This document shows positions 23,601-41,600 of a DNA stretch of 64,000 nt, one piece after another. A program made the position numbers. This DNA is from Oligoflexia bacterium (GTDB taxonomy: Bacteria > Bdellovibrionota > Bdellovibrionia > JABDDW01), in contig JAYTHU010000031.1 in NCBI GenBank assembly GCA_043732305.1, positions 1 through 64,000 of the forward strand. The letters run 5' to 3'. Position 1 is the stretch's first letter. The number at the start of each line of letters is the position of its first letter.

Positions 23601-26600
23601 CAAAGTGTAGTTCACTCCGGATCCTGATAAAGTTCCTATGACGGTGATTGTTCCTTCGCCATCGCTGAACACTAAATTAACTTTATTTCCCTGCACATAA
23701 GAACCTTGAGTCTGCAATCCAACATTGACAGGAATTGCAGGAACCACACCACCGCTAGGATCAGCAGTTCCGGTCAATGAATCCCAGAAGCCCATAGTAA
23801 TACCACCGCTTGAAGGAGCCACTTGCTGATTAGACGCGACAACAGCAGAGAGTGTCTGATTGCTAGTGAAAACCATTGGCGCAGAGCTAGATCCACTAGG
23901 ATTTGTGCCCATGGTCATTCCCACAACGCAATTTGAACCGTTGCAAGGAATCTGAGTGTAGCTTGCGGGTGTTCCAAAAATTGCAGAATTCCAATTGGTG
24001 TCCGTCGTTGTTGATGTGGCGCCAATAGCACCCCACGCCCAGTCAGTGCTCAAGAAATAGCGGGAGACGTCGTTGCTGTTCATACTTAAGCCAGGAGCCA
24101 TGCCAGAGGTGACCTGACCCGAACTGGTGTTCACTTGCGCCCATATAGAACTGCTCACTCCACTGGGAGCGGCTGGGACACTGACGCCACCACGGATGTT
24201 ATTACCGTTGGTGCGACTGGTTGAATTTTTGTCTTTATTGTTGCTACCGCAGGCCGTGAATAGGAGCGTTGCTGCAACCGATAATGCTACTAATAAATTG
24301 TTTCTCATAAATCTCCACTTTGAAAATAGGTCCATCCGTATTCTCTCAAGTTTATGTATTACAAGGGTTGGGCCATGGTTTTGGTCCTAGGGAATGACAG
24401 GTTGACTATAGGATTGATTGTCAGGAGTGCAGTTCGAATAGGCCTTGAGTCGTCAGACAACTGTCTAATTTTTAGCCAAGTCGGTTTTTACCGAGGTGCC
24501 AGTAATGACTCGATCCTATTCACGGTGAATTTCTCCAGCCCCGGTTTGTCTTGCCATTTCTTGTCTGCAAGAATCTCGATGATTATCTCTCGTGCTTGGT
24601 TCTTAGTGAGATTTGGTCCACTCCCAAACGACACTTGTGTCAGCATTTTAAACAGAATAATTTGAGCTAAAGAAAACTTCAAATTCTTTGAAGAATCATG
24701 GGGTGCAAAAAATACGGTTGGAGCAGCGTGAATTTGAAAAGAATAATTCTCTTTTTGAACCACCAACGTTAGCTCATCCAAATAAGATATCATCTCCCTC
24801 AACACCGCGACGGGAATCCTCTTATTTTCAAGGTAACTATCTAATAGTTCAAGTCTGGCAGCTGGACTGACCGGTAATTTCAAAACCTCCATCATTCTAT
24901 CGAAATGAATTTGTTCTTCCGAACCCATTTTAAATCGAGGACGAGGTCTCTTATTGGAAACCTGTTGTAGGATTTTCTCAACGGCGAACATTTCTAACTT
25001 AGGAACATTCGACCATTTTTTAGTGTTAAAAAGTTTGCGGGCTATTTCCTGGGCCTCTTCCTTTGACAACGCTCCGTGCGCTCCGGGGATCAAACGCTTC
25101 AGCATCTTAAACAAAATCACATCACTATACCCAAATTTAGAATTGGAACGGGAATGGGGACTTTTGATTGAATAGAATATTGATTCTGGAAACGCAATAG
25201 ACTGCATAGCTTCATTATCCTTGGCAATTGAGTCTTTATTCAAAACAGGAATCATTTTCATAAACACCATGACCGGCACGCTCGTAGATTCGACATAACT
25301 TTCCAAAACCCCGAGAACACTTTCTAGACTTGCGGGGGATTCCAAAAGAAAAAGCATGTGATCATAAATTTTTTGGTCCTCGGGGTCCAATTGAGACGAG
25401 CGTGGTCCATCTATGCCATTCTCACTGTCCATCAAAAAATCGAGATCGATACCTTGTCGAGACGCCGAGATAACCGATTTCATAATTTCAATATCGCTGA
25501 CTCCGTCGGCCAGTTCCTTGACCTCACTGACTTTCCCGATAATTGGCGAAAGAGCGTCGATCATCATCACGACCTGCATTTGGAGAGCTTTTAGTTTCTG
25601 TATCTCTTTAGTGAAAGTCGCGACAAAAACATTTTCGCCCATTGAATTTTGAGTTGCTACCTCCAGAACGCTTTTTCGTTCGGCAATCGTGCTCTGTGTG
25701 ACCCGAAGCAAAATGTATTCTTCATTCAATTGGCGAGATATTTCCGGAAATTCAATTTTACACAGGGCAATACTTTGCTTGCAGCCTTTAATTTTATTAG
25801 CAATCTCGGTAACGGAAACTTTATAATTCTTGCTCAGCCCAAGAAAATGGCTCACCGAAGATGGCTTACCGACTGTTAGTTTTTTCTGAAGCTCCGTAGT
25901 CAAAGCGGAAACATTCTGCATCCCAAAAAATACGGTACGAACCTTCTCCAAGCTTTCTTTATTTCGGTTCAAGGACAGGCCCGTCTGCTGCTTTGAAACT
26001 TCCAAAACCAAATCAAAAATCGGCTGATCCCAATCTTGCATAAATTCATTAGCCAGATACTGAGGATGAGAAAATCGAGAAGATTCGAGTTTGGACCTAA
26101 GACCTTCCACCAAAAAATGTGCAGCTTTCTGGATTTCAGAGTCATCCAGACTTTTTATCGTATGTTCGAACTCTGGCAAAGACGAACCGGACTTCAGAGT
26201 TTCAAGGATGGATGCGCACCTGTCCCCGAGAGACATTTCTTTTGGCGGCTGGGCACGGTGCCCTTCAATCTCAGAAGCCTCAACAAGGCCGGGGATTAAA
26301 AAGATAAAAACTAACATAAGAAACTTCATTTTTCCTTACTCCGAAACCAAAGTGTGCAAATGACTGATCACGTATTTTTCCAGACCACCGTAATAAGACC
26401 ACGTTGAATCGGTCAAAATTTCCCCGGCAATGACATGAGCATCCTCTTTAGATATTTTTCTCAAGTCGCTTTGAGTGACACGGCTTAATATTTTTGTAAT
26501 GACAATGATTTTAAGCGGAAACTTCGAATTGACATTCATGAAATTATGGGGAAGGAACTCGGTCGCCGGGTAAACTATTTTTTGGATAAACTGATCATCT

Positions 26601-38600: not shown

Positions 38601-41600
38601 GGGGAAATTCAATGTGACTGAAGAAGACCCCGCCCGCTCCGCCGATTTCATGGCTGCATACATTTCAGAATTGAGCGAGACAACGTCTCCATCCATCGAC
38701 GTGAACGATGAAGTTTCTCTTTTGAAATCAGCTAAAGATTTCTATCGACTAGATCCTTCACTGATTGATCCAAAAATTTTATTCTCTAAAGTTCAGAACT
38801 TTATTCCTAAGGTTCGCGATTACGGTCTCATGGGGCATGATCATGTGATTGCAGCGGCAAAAAAAATGATTGCAAACTCCCTTTCTGGCGCATCACTTGA
38901 TCCCGGGCCTGGATTTATTATGTACGTGGATGGTCCACCCGGCGTTGGAAAAACCGAAATGGCTAAGAGTTTTGCTTCGGCCATGGATTGGAACATCAAA
39001 AGAATTGTCATGCACCAGGCAATGACCTCAGACACTCTGCTTGAAAATCTTTATCGCGCACTGAAAAAAAATCCACACTCTCTGATTTTTCTCGACGAGA
39101 TAGAAAAAGCATCTCCCGACACTCTCAAGGGACTTCTTCAAACCATGGACAATGAGTACTTCAACGTGGATATGGAGATTGGCGACAAACAAAAACGCAC
39201 GGTGCGCGCGTCTACTAAACATGCGAAGTTTATGCTCGCTGGAAATGTACTGGGCGAAGCAATCTCCCATTGGTGGCATGATCATCCGGAATATATTAAC
39301 TCTCTCACACCACCTCATATGCAATTCATAAAGGACATGGGCGGCGAAGAACGTTTGCGGCAACTATTGATTCAAGAAGGTCTTCCGTCCCCGCTCATTG
39401 ATAGGGCCTACGTGACTTATGCTTTTCCGCCGACACGAGAACAGATAAAAGGTTTCCTCACTTTTAAGATCAACCTGATGATAAAAATATTTGAAAAAAA
39501 CAATGATCGAAAATTAGTCTTCACTGGTCTTGAAAAATACATTGAAGATGTGACTGATTTTGCTATTCGGGAAAAGCTTGGACCAAGATCCATTTTGCGC
39601 GCCACCACGGGCTCTAATGGAGATTTCGCAAGCATTCTGGCAAACCTTGCAAGCACGTACGCTGCGGCACCGGGGAGTCATGACGGGCCGGTGAAGCTTC
39701 GATTCGATGAAAAAAGAACGGATCCCACCCACGACTGCCAAAATATTTTGGCAGAAATGGAAAATGAGATCCGAGAAAACTAAACCTTAAATTATATCTT
39801 ATAGAACTTCTGGCCACCACGAGCCATCTGCAAGAGTGCTTCAGACGGTTTGAATCTCGGAGCCTTATTCTTAACAGACAATTCTTCGAGCTCATCCACA
39901 ATGGCGTTTACACCAAGGCTATCGGCCCATTTAAGTAGTCCACCTCTGAAGGGCGGAAAACCTGTGCCCATTATCATGCCCAAGTCGACATCGTCAGGGC
40001 GTTCGACGATTTTTTCCTGCATACACATGGCGGCTTCATTGATCATGGGAAACAAAACACGTTTCACCATTTCATCTGGATTGAACTTTCCGGGCGTTTT
40101 GGTAACTCCGGTGATTTCATAAATTTTAGGATCCACGTGCAACATTTTTCCAGTCGCATCGTAAAGATAAAATCCTGAACCATTTTTCTTGCCGAATTTT
40201 TTTGCATCGACAACTTTGTGCATAACAGGTGAAGGCTCCGCGCGAACTCCGAAAGCTTTAAATAAAATTTTCGCCACTTTTTCCGCAACATCGATCCCCA
40301 CTTCGTCGATCAAATGCATTGGACCCATGGGCATTCCAAAATTCAATAAAGCTTTATCAATATTTTCAATGCTCTCGCCTTCACTGAATACGTAACAAGC
40401 TTCGTTCAAATAGGGCATGAGCAAACGATTGACTAAAAATCCGGGACATTCCTTAACCACTATGGGAGTTTTTCCCATGCGTTTGGAAAGTGCAAAAATA
40501 GTTGCAGCTGCTTTGTCGCTGGTTTTTTCTCCTCTGATCACTTCGATCAAAGGCATTTTTGCGACGGGATTGAAAAAATGCATACCCACAAAATTTTCTG
40601 GCTTCGGCAAAGCGGATGAAATTTCATTGATGCTCAAACTCGAAGTGTTACTGGCAATAATGACATCGTCTTTGCATTGACCTGCGACTTCGGCTAAAAC
40701 TTTTTTCTTCACATTTATATCTTCAACGATCGCTTCAATCACTACGTCCAAAGTTTTGAACCCAGCAAAGTCTACTCCACCGGAAATGTGATCCATCTTT
40801 CTTTGATATTCAAACTTGTTGATTTTCTTTCGTTTGACATCTTTTGAAAATAAATCCGCCGCGGTTTTTATTCCTTTGGCGATAGCATCAAGATTCACAT
40901 CTTTCACTCGGACCATCATGTTTTTGTCCGCAGCGAGTTGTGCAATCCCGCCCCCCATTGTGCCCGCTCCAAGAACGCCGACGTGTTCAATGGGAGAAAG
41001 ATCAATTTTTTTATTTCCCGGGAGACCAGTTTGTTTTTTCACAGCCTCAGTCATGAAATAAAGAGAGATTAAATTTTTACTGACAACAGTTGCCGCCATT
41101 TCACCGAATCCATCGGACTCGATTTTCATTCCTTTGACGAAATTTCCGCCGTAGGTTTTTTTAATGACTTCAAGTGCTTTCAAAGGCGACGGATAATGTC
41201 CACCCGTTTTAGCCATGAGAGCTTGTTTAGCTTTTGAGAAAATCACAGCTTTCGCAGGACCTTCTAAAATAACATTTACCAAACCCTTGGGTTTGAAAAA
41301 CTTTCGGCGCTTGCCTTTTACAACAGCGTCTTTGGTGAATTTCACCACCTGCTCATGCAGAAGTTCTTTAGGCACGCACAGATCTATAAGGCCGATTTTA
41401 TATGCTTTGCTTCCATTCACAGATTTACCGGCAAGAATGATATCTAAACTTTGCTGAAGTCCAATCAAACGGGGCAACCTCTGAGTTCCACCGAACCCTG
41501 GAAAAACTCCCAAATTAACTTCTGGTAAACCAATTTTGGTTGATGGGTCATCGGTCGCGATCCTATAATCACAAGCTAATATCAGTTCGCATCCGCCCCC

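What a model noticed while it worked through the whole genome (the two positions that open the first line are those of the whole stretch)
24488..39783. Terminal Cys-helix tag marks ~85 signal-peptide proteins whose cargo are cytoplasm-type enzymes
82 curated proteins (about 3% of genes; eight in tandem here, g00289-g00296) carry a Sec-type signal peptide plus a short amphipathic helix C-x-x-x-[LFI]-x-x-[LIV], either just behind the signal peptide (57) or in the last 30 residues (24), almost never both (1). Many cargos need ATP, SAM, aminoacyl-tRNA, ribosomes or DNA, so the motif is proposed as an undescribed sorting tag on predator effectors that act in a target cell's cytoplasm.
Evidence so far: Unseeded regex on ORFs: among 494 signal-peptide, non-lipoprotein, non-TM proteins 45 have it at residues 20-49 (10.0 expected from the interior rate) and 23 near the C-end (6.0 expected); in 1007 proteins without a signal peptide 42 vs 45 and 20 vs 27. 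In 50 of 83 listed proteins it is the only mature Cys. The Cys is kept in >=90% of rows of three unrelated ortholog alignments whose flanks are not conserved. Signal peptide plus N-terminal Cys in 90 of 109 SpoVR-fusion, 38 of 47 L/F-transferase, 52 of 54 A1-like and 15 of 17 RelE-family relatives; C-terminal Cys in all 13 signal-peptide SelO relatives; 0 of 81 canonical SelO have a signal peptide. The tag stays at the C-end when an extra dom [...]
(Added by a program. Inside this text positions count along the whole contig: contig position 1 is position 1 of the stretch shown here. "Call 12" and the like, gene names such as g00115 and contig names such as C1 are that model's own, and its searches are not shown. 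The text may have been shortened before it was handed on; [...] marks where a part breaks off. The agent that wrote the report below was given it as the finding of a first reader that could run no searches.)

Follow-up and report, generated by a model that had tools for sequence, protein, structure and literature searches.

The report
Cysteine sorting tag on predator effectors
Many uncultured relatives of predatory Bdellovibrio put an export signal plus a tiny one-cysteine tag, spelled differently in different genomes, on enzymes that normally work only inside cells (ATP-driven unfoldases, sigma factors, a tRNA-using transferase), which likely marks an undescribed route for delivering these proteins into a prey bacterium's cytoplasm.

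Summary
Observation confirmed and extended. All eight window genes carry the tag; six are paralogues, and one has an uncertain start. Genome-wide the strict motif is about 7-fold enriched at either end of signal-peptide proteins, only with Cys, and never at both ends.

New here:
(1) Seven sigma-70 factors in six relatives, and 7 of 7 signal-peptide Leu/Phe-tRNA transferases found in 30 genomes, have a Cys just behind the signal peptide.
(2) The tag has genome-specific spellings. Tags on non-homologous proteins co-vary within genomes (37 operons, z=6.2, controls flat). Genome G306 uses C-x-x-[ST]-A on 11 of 77 exported proteins, against 1 of 607 here.

So the constant is Cys plus the +3/+4 residues, not an amphipathic helix, and a shared reader is implied. 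Best reading: a post-Sec sorting signal, likely docking by mixed disulfide, for delivery into a bacterial cytoplasm. No reader or transporter was found and delivery is inferred. 42 of 68 tagged candidates have no Pfam match, and some carry envelope-type domains. Nine literature searches found no description. The scan noted one tagged gene pair before on other DNA (e1-2984804).

The parts
24488..26329 (-). 613-aa exported protein, paralogue family; signal peptide, N-tag CASILETL at 26195-26218, shared ~290-aa helical-bundle domain with a Cys pair 7 residues apart, variable C-terminal half
   Evidence: no Pfam or NCBIfam match
26336..27727 (-). 463-aa paralogue; N-tag CVSVLEAL at 27581-27604
27724..29133 (-). 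469-aa paralogue; N-tag CGLLLENL at 29023-29046
29130..30986 (-). 618-aa paralogue; N-tag CILELEKV at 30864-30887; AlphaFold model: tag helix pLDDT about 50, core bundle mostly 80-97
   Evidence: fold search gives only generic three-helix bundles
30986..32899 (-). 637-aa paralogue (TTG start); N-tag CKASLESI at 32777-32800; also a lipobox-like Cys23
32917..34830 (-). ~631-aa exported protein unrelated to the paralogues (start probably Met7); C-tag CTSELENI at 32935-32958 is its only Cys
   Evidence: no relative in 40 other genomes or in the protein search
34943..36844 (+). 633-aa paralogue, divergently transcribed; N-tag CQAILKTL at 35147-35170; start codon uncertain (37 residues precede the hydrophobic stretch)
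36832..39783 (+). 983-aa signal-peptide ClpB-like AAA+ protein with intact Walker A (GPPGVGKT) and Walker B (LIFLDE); C-tag CQNILAEM at 39736-39759
14005..15135 (+). further tagged exported protein in the window; N-tag CTFKLNKI at 14143-14166, its only Cys
   Evidence: no Pfam match
58090..58752 (+). 220-aa exported protein; C-tag CLNRLKNV at 58699-58722, its only Cys
59212..60174 (-). 320-aa exported protein; possible C-tag CRKRFLES at 59230-59253 (weaker fit)

Best explanation
About 13% of this genome's signal-peptide proteins carry one five-to-eight-residue cysteine tag at either end, which is likely a sorting signal read after Sec export by a dedicated, still unidentified receptor that would hand the cargo on for delivery into the cytoplasm of a target bacterium. 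Shown: the tag, its restriction to Cys and to exported proteins, one tag per polypeptide, its presence on intact ATPases, sigma factors and Leu/Phe-tRNA transferases, and genome-specific spelling of the residues after the Cys. Inferred: Sec export and signal cleavage (heuristic only); one reader per genome that contacts Cys and +2/+3/+4/+7; a mixed disulfide between tag and reader or carrier in the oxidising periplasm, undone in the reducing cytosol of the target; a bacterial prey or host whose proteins are unfolded, tagged and degraded and whose transcription is redirected by the cargo. Which channel crosses the outer membrane (type II secretion, Tad pilus, or an open predator-prey junction) is not determined.
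For: Specificity: enrichment is Cys-only and signal-peptide-only. Mature Cys count is odd in 49 of 74 tagged vs 145 of 498 other exported proteins, in a cell with a VKOR-thioredoxin fusion and a DsbA-like protein.

Per-chain, not structural: each of three operon subunits has its own signal peptide and one tag. The tag is low-confidence in two AlphaFold models whose cores are confident. It stays at the C-end of SelO after a nucleotidyltransferase domain is added (4 proteins). It survives loss of the internal Cys pair in P0114. The three exported-clade SelO without tag also lack a signal-peptide call.

Cargo: seven sigma-70 factors with signal peptide plus Cys in six genomes of four families, against 0 of 29 read in four f2 genomes plus G000. 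7 of 7 signal-peptide Leu/Phe-transferases are tagged, beside 19 ordinary copies. Walker A/B motifs are intact.

Reader: same-genome similarity of AAA C-tag and SpoVR N-tag, BLOSUM 0.35 vs -0.36 +/- 0.12, z 6.2, n=37. Upstream residues give z -1.1, 60 interior 8-mers max z 1.8, shifted registers are not significant; z stays at or above 5.1 after thinning kin to 29 clusters. The predicted C-x-x-[ST]-A dialect is found at unlinked loci of G306 (11 of 77 vs 1 of 607, Fisher p 2e-10), on the same cargo families (ClpB-like, MoxR, ABC1). All three subunits lost the Cys together in L094.

Precedent for the geometry: the Cox17 signal for Mia40 has key residues at +3, +4, +7 after the docking Cys (PMC2806287, passages).
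Against: No receptor, carrier or transporter was identified. No neighbour recurs around 35 operon loci. DsbA-like, VKOR and Lgt copy numbers do not separate tag-rich from tag-poor genomes. Signal peptides rest on a heuristic with visible false calls. The public record of the best sigma example starts at Met41 and lacks signal and tag; my start is a TTG without an obvious ribosome-binding site. Some tagged proteins have envelope-type domains and most have no annotation. No family was seen to swap the tag between N- and C-end. G306's exported Leu/Phe-transferase reads CINSLL, not the pure local dialect. The full G158 dialect occurs only in its three operon genes. The G306 sample was chosen around pattern hits (8 of the 11 do not carry the selected Val). 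The lifestyle of these lineages is unknown. Nothing here distinguishes a disulfide from another S-linked bond.
Confidence: 0.6

Rival explanations
1. The tag is the recognition site of a periplasmic enzyme that modifies the Cys (acyl, lipid, sugar or other S-linked group), tethering cargo to the outer membrane, vesicles or the predator-prey junction; the cargo then reaches prey contents through a breached inner membrane, with no carrier.
For: A five-to-six-residue, end-independent, genome-specific motif suits an enzyme's sequon as well as a receptor. In several proteins the Cys sits directly after the signal peptide in a lipobox-like context. A review's model has an epibiotic junction opening onto the prey cytoplasm (PMC12428579, passages). 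G000 has three Lgt homologues.
Against: Most N-tags lie well behind the cleavage site (Cys at residues 18-53) and C-tags 6-28 residues from the end, outside any lipobox. Two Lgt copies are also the rule in tag-poor genomes. A permanent membrane tether fits sigma factors and ring ATPases poorly (inference).
Confidence: 0.2
2. One reading: the tag engages a prey inner-membrane protein (for example a redox or import protein) to enter the cytoplasm, and dialects track prey range.
For: SitA toxins use family-specific escort domains to exploit target envelope proteins for cytoplasmic entry (PMC8546572, abstract). It would explain why no producer gene tracked the tag.
Against: Five to six residues are very little for membrane passage of 1800-aa proteins. 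My search for a producer-side reader covered only four families plus gene neighbourhoods, so its failure says little.
Confidence: 0.1
3. The proteins are not delivered to another cell: the hydrophobic N-termini are membrane anchors of cytoplasmic enzymes, or the proteins work in the producer's own periplasm, with the Cys as a redox or stability feature.
For: Signal peptides were called by heuristic; gene callers drop the segment in at least one case; membrane-tethered pro-sigma factors exist (recalled).
Against: 70 of 74 tagged proteins have K/R before the hydrophobic stretch and 57 of 74 an A-x-A-like site, at least as often as other exported proteins, which by the positive-inside rule puts the body outside. 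Ordinary cytoplasmic copies coexist in the same genomes (RpoD in G070; Leu/Phe-transferase in G015, G016, G153). The periplasm lacks RNA polymerase and aminoacyl-tRNA (established knowledge).
Confidence: 0.06
4. Tags pair with each other (or with the internal Cys pair) to hold subunits together, and co-vary for that reason or through local DNA copying.
For: The strongest co-variation was measured between neighbouring genes of one operon; six window proteins have two more Cys.
Against: Three subunits with one Cys each cannot all pair one to one; tags also sit on unlinked families such as sigma factors and Leu/Phe-transferases; the G306 dialect recurs at unlinked loci on many contigs; P0114 keeps the tag without the pair.
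Confidence: 0.04

Closest known systems
MISS/ITS signal read by mitochondrial Mia40 (PMC2806287; passages read)
   Same: Short peptide; one docking Cys; in Cox17 the key residues at +3, +4, +7 on the same helix face; a portable signal that combines shape recognition with a mixed disulfide.
   Different: Eukaryotic import rather than bacterial export; substrates have twin CX3C/CX9C motifs (recalled) and end with an internal disulfide, whereas most cargo here has no second Cys; no Mia40-like receptor identified; the G306 dialect is not hydrophobic. An analogy, not homology.
SitA lipoprotein toxins delivered by outer-membrane exchange in myxobacteria (PMC8546572; abstract and outline read)
   Same: Exported proteins with a Cys near the mature N-end whose catalytic domains act in another bacterium's cytoplasm.
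   Different: SitA are lipoproteins with whole escort domains and immunity genes and act on kin; here the Cys is mostly outside a lipobox, can be C-terminal, the signal is 5-8 residues, and cargo includes multi-subunit ATPases and sigma factors.
Disulfide-tethered A subunits of Sec-assembled AB toxins such as typhoid toxin (recalled, no call)
   Same: Sec export, a terminal Cys linking cargo to a carrier in the periplasm, reductive release in the target cell.
   Different: One or two cargos per dedicated, linked carrier; here about 80 unrelated cargos share a tag and no carrier gene is linked.
C-terminal sorting signals (PEP-CTERM, MYXO-CTERM, GlyGly-CTERM, T9SS CTD) and post-signal host-targeting motifs (RxLR, PEXEL) (recalled, no call)
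   Same: A genome-wide second signal on Sec substrates, read by dedicated machinery.
   Different: Those are fixed to one end and use a transmembrane helix, a folded domain or a cleavage site; this tag occurs at either end, has no membrane helix and centres on a Cys.
Sec/T2SS-class bacterial toxin deaminases (PMC3239186; passages read) and predator-enriched secreted Lipocone effectors (PMC12419801; passages read)
   Same: Signal-peptide enzymes proposed to act on target cells, including in Bdellovibrionota.
   Different: In the passages seen neither describes a shared Cys tag, its dialects, or exported sigma factors and AAA systems.

Membership tests
Bacterial lipoproteins (Lgt/LspA) | Cys at +1 directly after a lipobox at the end of the signal peptide | tested here: not met
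   Enrichment was measured in proteins without a lipobox call; N-tag Cys at residues 18-53 and C-tags 7-28 from the end. A minority sit in lipobox-like contexts.
PEP-CTERM / MYXO-CTERM / GlyGly-CTERM sorting signals | C-terminal transmembrane helix followed by basic residues (definition recalled) | tested here: not met
   C-tags end 6-28 residues from the terminus with no transmembrane segment; no such model near its cut-off among 46 proteins scanned in NCBIfam.
Tat substrates | Twin-arginine motif in the signal peptide | tested here: not met
   0 of 74 tagged proteins.
Mia40 MISS/ITS substrates | Hydrophobic residues at +3/+4/+7 from the docking Cys | tested here: met
   +4 hydrophobic in 71-100% of tags in six families; not so in the G306 and G158 dialects.
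Mia40 MISS/ITS substrates | Twin CX3C/CX9C motifs that end as intramolecular disulfides | tested here: not met
   56 of 74 tagged proteins have at most two mature Cys; the tag is often the only Cys.
Mia40 MISS/ITS substrates | A CPC-type oxidoreductase receptor | tested here: inconclusive
   A list of exported CxxC/CPC proteins showed no convincing candidate; only thioredoxin-fold and VKOR families were searched.
SitA / outer-membrane-exchange toxins | Lipoprotein with an N-terminal escort domain | tested here: not met
   Unrelated cargos share only 5-8 residues; a third or more have the tag at the C-end.
SitA / outer-membrane-exchange toxins | TraAB receptor pair and cognate immunity genes | not tested
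   No family search for TraA/TraB or immunity genes was run.
Disulfide-linked AB toxins | Single terminal Cys on a Sec-exported catalytic chain | tested here: met
Disulfide-linked AB toxins | Cognate carrier or binding subunit, usually encoded alongside | tested here: inconclusive
   No recurring neighbour in 35 loci; no convincing carrier among lone-Cys exported proteins; an unlinked carrier is not excluded.
Type II secretion substrates | Sec signal and a T2SS in the genome | tested here: met
   Three secretins, one in a T2SS-like locus and two in Tad-like loci, and a GspG.
Type II secretion substrates | Secretion depends on the T2SS | not testable with these tools
   Needs a mutant.
Sigma-70 factors (cargo in relatives) | Region 2, with regions 3 and 4 where present | tested here: met
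   Region 2 above cut-off in all seven; L157 aligns to SigA at E 1e-41 with the KFSTYATWWIRQ and TRERIRQI stretches intact.

The most novel reading that the evidence does not exclude
A large uncultured part of the Bdellovibrionota runs an undescribed protein-delivery pathway: Sec export, then a one-cysteine tag read by a co-evolving receptor, then entry into a living bacterium's cytoplasm. Through it the attacker installs its own ATP-driven unfolding and degradation kit (ClpB-, MoxR- and PrkA-type ATPases, N-degron transferase, peptidases) and its own sigma factors, taking over the victim's proteostasis and transcription rather than merely digesting it.
Probability: 0.45. Interest if true: 0.95.

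Novelty: categorically new. Interest (0 to 1): 0.87.

Why it matters
How bacterial predators get enzymes to the prey cytoplasm is open: a 2026 review stresses that the prey cytoplasmic membrane stays intact while its contents are degraded (PMC13689555, passages), and predator secretion is called largely unexplored (PMC12622784, passages). Exported sigma factors, for which my search found no paper, would mean one bacterium steering another's transcription with a housekeeping-type protein, and would recast these lineages as manipulators of living hosts. A minimal portable delivery tag would also be a useful tool for bacterial cell biology.

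Tried and rejected
Reader or transporter hunt, all negative or uninformative: neighbours of 35 operon loci; paralogue families, lone-Cys and CxxC exported proteins, large exported proteins and runs of exported genes in G000; DsbA-like, VKOR and DsbB families in 5 genomes (same pattern in tag-rich and tag-poor); Lgt paralogues in 36 genomes (one to three copies everywhere). 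VirB-like loci of G000 look like mobile conjugative elements (names recalled from the sequences).

Window proteins: ESM Atlas gave no usable hit for signal-plus-tag or for the 32917 protein. A recalled likeness of the 32917 protein to TelA/KlaA was not supported by Pfam and had no relatives to test with. Fold searches gave nothing specific: no Foldseek match at E<=0.001 for the SpoVR model, tied helical bundles for the window family. The G000 Leu/Phe-transferase-like protein has no PDB sequence match, although it passes the Pfam cut-off and groups with the exported copies.

Other genomes: no enrichment in samples of G018 (1 of 75), G208 (1 of 51), G008 (2 of 29) or G019 (2 of 26). Of G018's five terminal lone Cys, two fall in an efflux protein and a TPM protein, so no cryptic dialect was seen. 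An untagged signal-peptide ClpB-like ORF in L095 looks frameshifted and was not counted either way. Whether genomes whose operon lost the Cys (G307-G309) lack the tag genome-wide stays open: they showed no exported sigma factor, Leu/Phe-transferase or MoxR copy to judge by.

No complex prediction was sent, for want of a candidate partner.

Full report
SETTING. The window is G000:C31:1-64000 of a 2.99-Mb, 98.4% complete genome. No call names its taxon; I infer Bdellovibrionota from the record titles of relatives. No gene caller or SignalP was available, so I called ORFs and signal peptides with my own scripts. The heuristic makes visible false calls, which should dilute rather than create enrichment.

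THE OBSERVATION. All eight ORFs at 24488-39783 carry the motif at the stated end. Six are paralogues sharing a ~290-aa helical domain with two further Cys seven residues apart, so the tandem array is three independent cases, not eight. Genome-wide the strict motif is found near the N-end in 29 of 572 signal-peptide proteins (4.2 expected) and near the C-end in 20 (2.8 expected), at both ends in none; in 1083 proteins without signal peptide it is at background. Only Cys gives this: 14 other residues in its place give ratios of 0.4-1.3. A looser regex marks 74 of 572, or 13%. Mature Cys number is odd in 49 of 74 tagged and 145 of 498 other exported proteins, and the genome has a VKOR-thioredoxin fusion and a DsbA-like protein, so an unpaired Cys is being kept in a compartment that is probably oxidising.

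A MODULE, NOT PART OF THE FOLD. In an alignment of 26 SpoVR-fusion N-termini the tag Cys is one of eight invariant columns amid unconserved flanks; in the window family (six paralogues plus five outside relatives) it is one of three. AlphaFold models put the tag in a low-confidence helix (pLDDT about 45-50) beside cores mostly at 80-97. Relative P0114 has lost the internal Cys pair and keeps only the tag Cys. In the exported SelO clade 19 of 22 proteins end in the tag, including four with an added nucleotidyltransferase domain; the three without it have no signal-peptide call; 0 of 81 canonical SelO have the motif. Several tags end 6-7 residues from the C-terminus, so +7 is dispensable, and several start at the first mature residue, so nothing upstream is needed. 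I saw no family that moves the tag from one end to the other. One G000 paralogue has Ser in place of the Cys.

CARGO. Of 68 tagged candidates 26 have a Pfam match at E<0.01. Thirteen of these need ATP, SAM or tRNA or are normally cytosolic: AAA+, ClpB-like, PrkA, MoxR, SpoVR-DUF444, SelO, two ATP-grasp, ABC1 kinase, DnaJ, methyltransferase, adenosine deaminase and Leu/Phe-transferase. Others are envelope-compatible (S41, M3 and M48 peptidases, PLD, WG repeats), and 42 have no match. The window's 983-aa gene is a further ClpB-like ATPase. Walker A is present in all six exported ATPases checked and Walker B was found in five. Among 68 untagged signal-peptide controls, 28 matched Pfam at 1e-5 (a stricter threshold), nearly all envelope families. 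The exceptions looked by eye like false signal calls on housekeeping genes, except one sigma factor that proved to have a signal peptide and a lone Cys. I found no RelE among the proteins scanned.

UNBIASED CARGO TESTS. Leu/Phe-tRNA transferase: 26 hits in 30 genomes; 19 have no signal peptide (one false heuristic call set aside), 7 have one, and all 7 have a Cys just behind it; they group with the G000 protein (FastTree support 0.69), and three genomes hold both kinds. Sigma-70: 149 region-2 hits in 27 genomes; I fetched 20 chosen for unusual length, and 5 have signal peptide plus Cys. With two met earlier that makes seven in six genomes of four families, of RpoD-, FliA- and ECF-like types. 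L157 aligns to SigA at E 1e-41 with region 2 and region 4 motifs intact, and its genome also has an ordinary RpoD. Against this, its public record starts at Met41. Control: 0 of 29 sigma loci read in four f2 genomes and G000 (one further locus was misread by my script, one hit had no locus), and 0 of 17 in G306-G309. A sigma factor needs core RNA polymerase, so its site of action is a bacterial cytoplasm (established knowledge); that it is another cell's is inference from the signal peptide.

DISTRIBUTION. The three-gene operon (PrkA-like, ~1800-aa AAA protein, SpoVR-DUF444 fusion) is in 27 of 301 genomes of the phylum, in 12 families, and in 0 of 38 of family f2. A scan of all prokaryote species gave 35 loci, most titled as Bdellovibrionota or Deltaproteobacteria; the record titled Bradymonadales matches G095, which lies in the phylum. 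Each subunit has its own signal peptide and tag: N-Cys 18 of 20, C-Cys 23 of 26, N-Cys 27 of 30; both ends in 1 of 66 full-length proteins. Samples of 200-400 kb: G007 7 of 38 and G070 6 of 40 (0.8 expected each), but G018 1 of 75, G208 1 of 51, G008 2 of 29, G019 2 of 26. In G070 all 10 single-Cys exported proteins have that Cys at an end (2.1 expected). The tag is thus phylum-wide but patchy.

DIALECTS: THE MAIN NEW RESULT. In some operons all three non-homologous subunits share an unusual spelling: C-x-x-x-E-x-Y in L097, C-x-x-S-A in L101/L102, and no Cys at all in L094. Across 37 operons the eight residues after the Cys are more alike between the AAA C-tag and the SpoVR N-tag of one genome than of different genomes (0.35 vs -0.36 +/- 0.12, p 5e-5; p 1e-4 without the three odd operons). 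The signal lies at +2, +3, +4 and +7; upstream residues, shifted registers and 60 interior 8-mers show none; thinning kin to 29 clusters leaves z at or above 5.1. The Cys was picked by a fixed rule that chose wrongly in a few proteins; I left these in.

I then tested the prediction in G306, the genome of L102. The DNA pattern for its dialect hits 81 times against 42 for the reversed control. In 400 kb fetched around such hits, 11 of 77 exported proteins have terminal C-x-x-[ST]-A (8 without the Val used for selection) against 1 of 607 in G000, while the common form is at background (3 of 77, 3.3 expected) against 77 of 607. The cargo families are the same: ClpB-like, MoxR, ABC1 kinase, plus a UDG-superfamily protein. 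Contrary points: G306's exported Leu/Phe-transferase reads CINSLL, and the full G158 pattern is confined to its operon. Genome-wide co-variation of a motif on unrelated proteins at opposite ends is what a single sequence-specific reader would produce.

MECHANISM. Shown: everything above. Inferred: Sec export (70 of 74 with K/R before the hydrophobic stretch, 57 of 74 with an A-x-A-like site, no Tat motif); a reader contacting Cys and the following helical face; delivery of each chain separately, with reassembly where ATP is available. I favour a mixed disulfide to a periplasmic receptor or carrier, because it explains the absolute need for Cys, indifference to which end carries it, and a built-in release in a reducing cytosol. 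The same geometry is used by the Cox17 signal for Mia40 (PMC2806287, passages). An S-linked modification, or a prey-side reader, is not excluded. G000 has three secretins, in T2SS-like and Tad-like loci, but no link to the tag was found, and four candidate families failed to separate tag-rich from tag-poor genomes.

PRIOR WORK. Nine full-text searches returned no description of the tag, of exported sigma factors or of an exported PrkA-SpoVR system; the library lacks most subscription papers. Seen: passages of PMC2806287, PMC3239186, PMC12419801, PMC13689555, PMC12428579, PMC12622784 and PMC11495043; abstract and outline of PMC8546572; other papers as search listings only. No supplements were read; large supplementary tables of the polymorphic-toxin and Lipocone papers could list some of these proteins.

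VERDICT. Real, more than chance, wider and stranger than first described. It fails the defining tests of lipoproteins, CTERM signals, Tat and SitA, and works most like a Mia40-type docking signal coupled to an AB-toxin-like hand-over. Interest 0.87; machinery unidentified, delivery unproven.

Noticed in passing
L157:8404-9873 (+), G070; L078:13218-14243 (-); L208, L210, L216, L217, L222: Seven sigma-70 factors of different types with signal peptide and a Cys just behind it; worth a study of their own.
   Followed up: partly
L010 (G000:C50:1270-12292) and L042-L106: Exported three-gene PrkA-like / 1800-aa AAA / SpoVR-DUF444 operon; a two-gene form lacking the large AAA gene occurs in L082 and L087.
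   Followed up: partly
L205:2294-3379 (+), beside rpoD in G070: Signal peptide + tag + HEPN domain.
   Followed up: no
L302:12164-16528 (+), G306; L095:14712-21223: Exported fusion of ClpB-like AAA modules with an M41 (FtsH-type) peptidase domain, tagged at the C-end; the L095 copy looks broken into pieces.
   Followed up: partly
L031:4487-8767 (G000:C188:4805-9085): Four tandem exported proteins; three end in the tag, and the first has Ser in place of the Cys.
   Followed up: no
G000:C44:4776-4985 and L354:1-321 (G000:C62:125395-125715): Very short tagged ORFs (69 and 106 aa), the latter with a partial GNAT match; possibly decayed effectors.
   Followed up: no
G000:C94:521-2718 and C231:48610-49458: Three Lgt homologues, two of them in tandem beside a signal-peptidase-II-like gene (that name recalled); most of the 36 genomes tested have two.
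   Followed up: partly
G000:C113:11891-22870, C161:21175-28037, C235:1751-6410, C227:1572-2291: Several VirB/VirD4-like gene clusters that look like integrated conjugative elements (names recalled from sequence, not scanned).
   Followed up: no
window 179-2476: Four short phage-like genes at the contig start (nuclease-like and replication-protein-like by eye), suggesting a prophage remnant.
   Followed up: no
window 54494-57943: Cluster of ribosomal-protein genes with a metal transporter, already reported by the scan (e1-1247257, e1-1247258).
   Followed up: no
L147, L152, L153, L155 (G007): At least four near-identical ~270-aa cytoplasmic ORFs in 200 kb, probably a multi-copy mobile element.
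   Followed up: no
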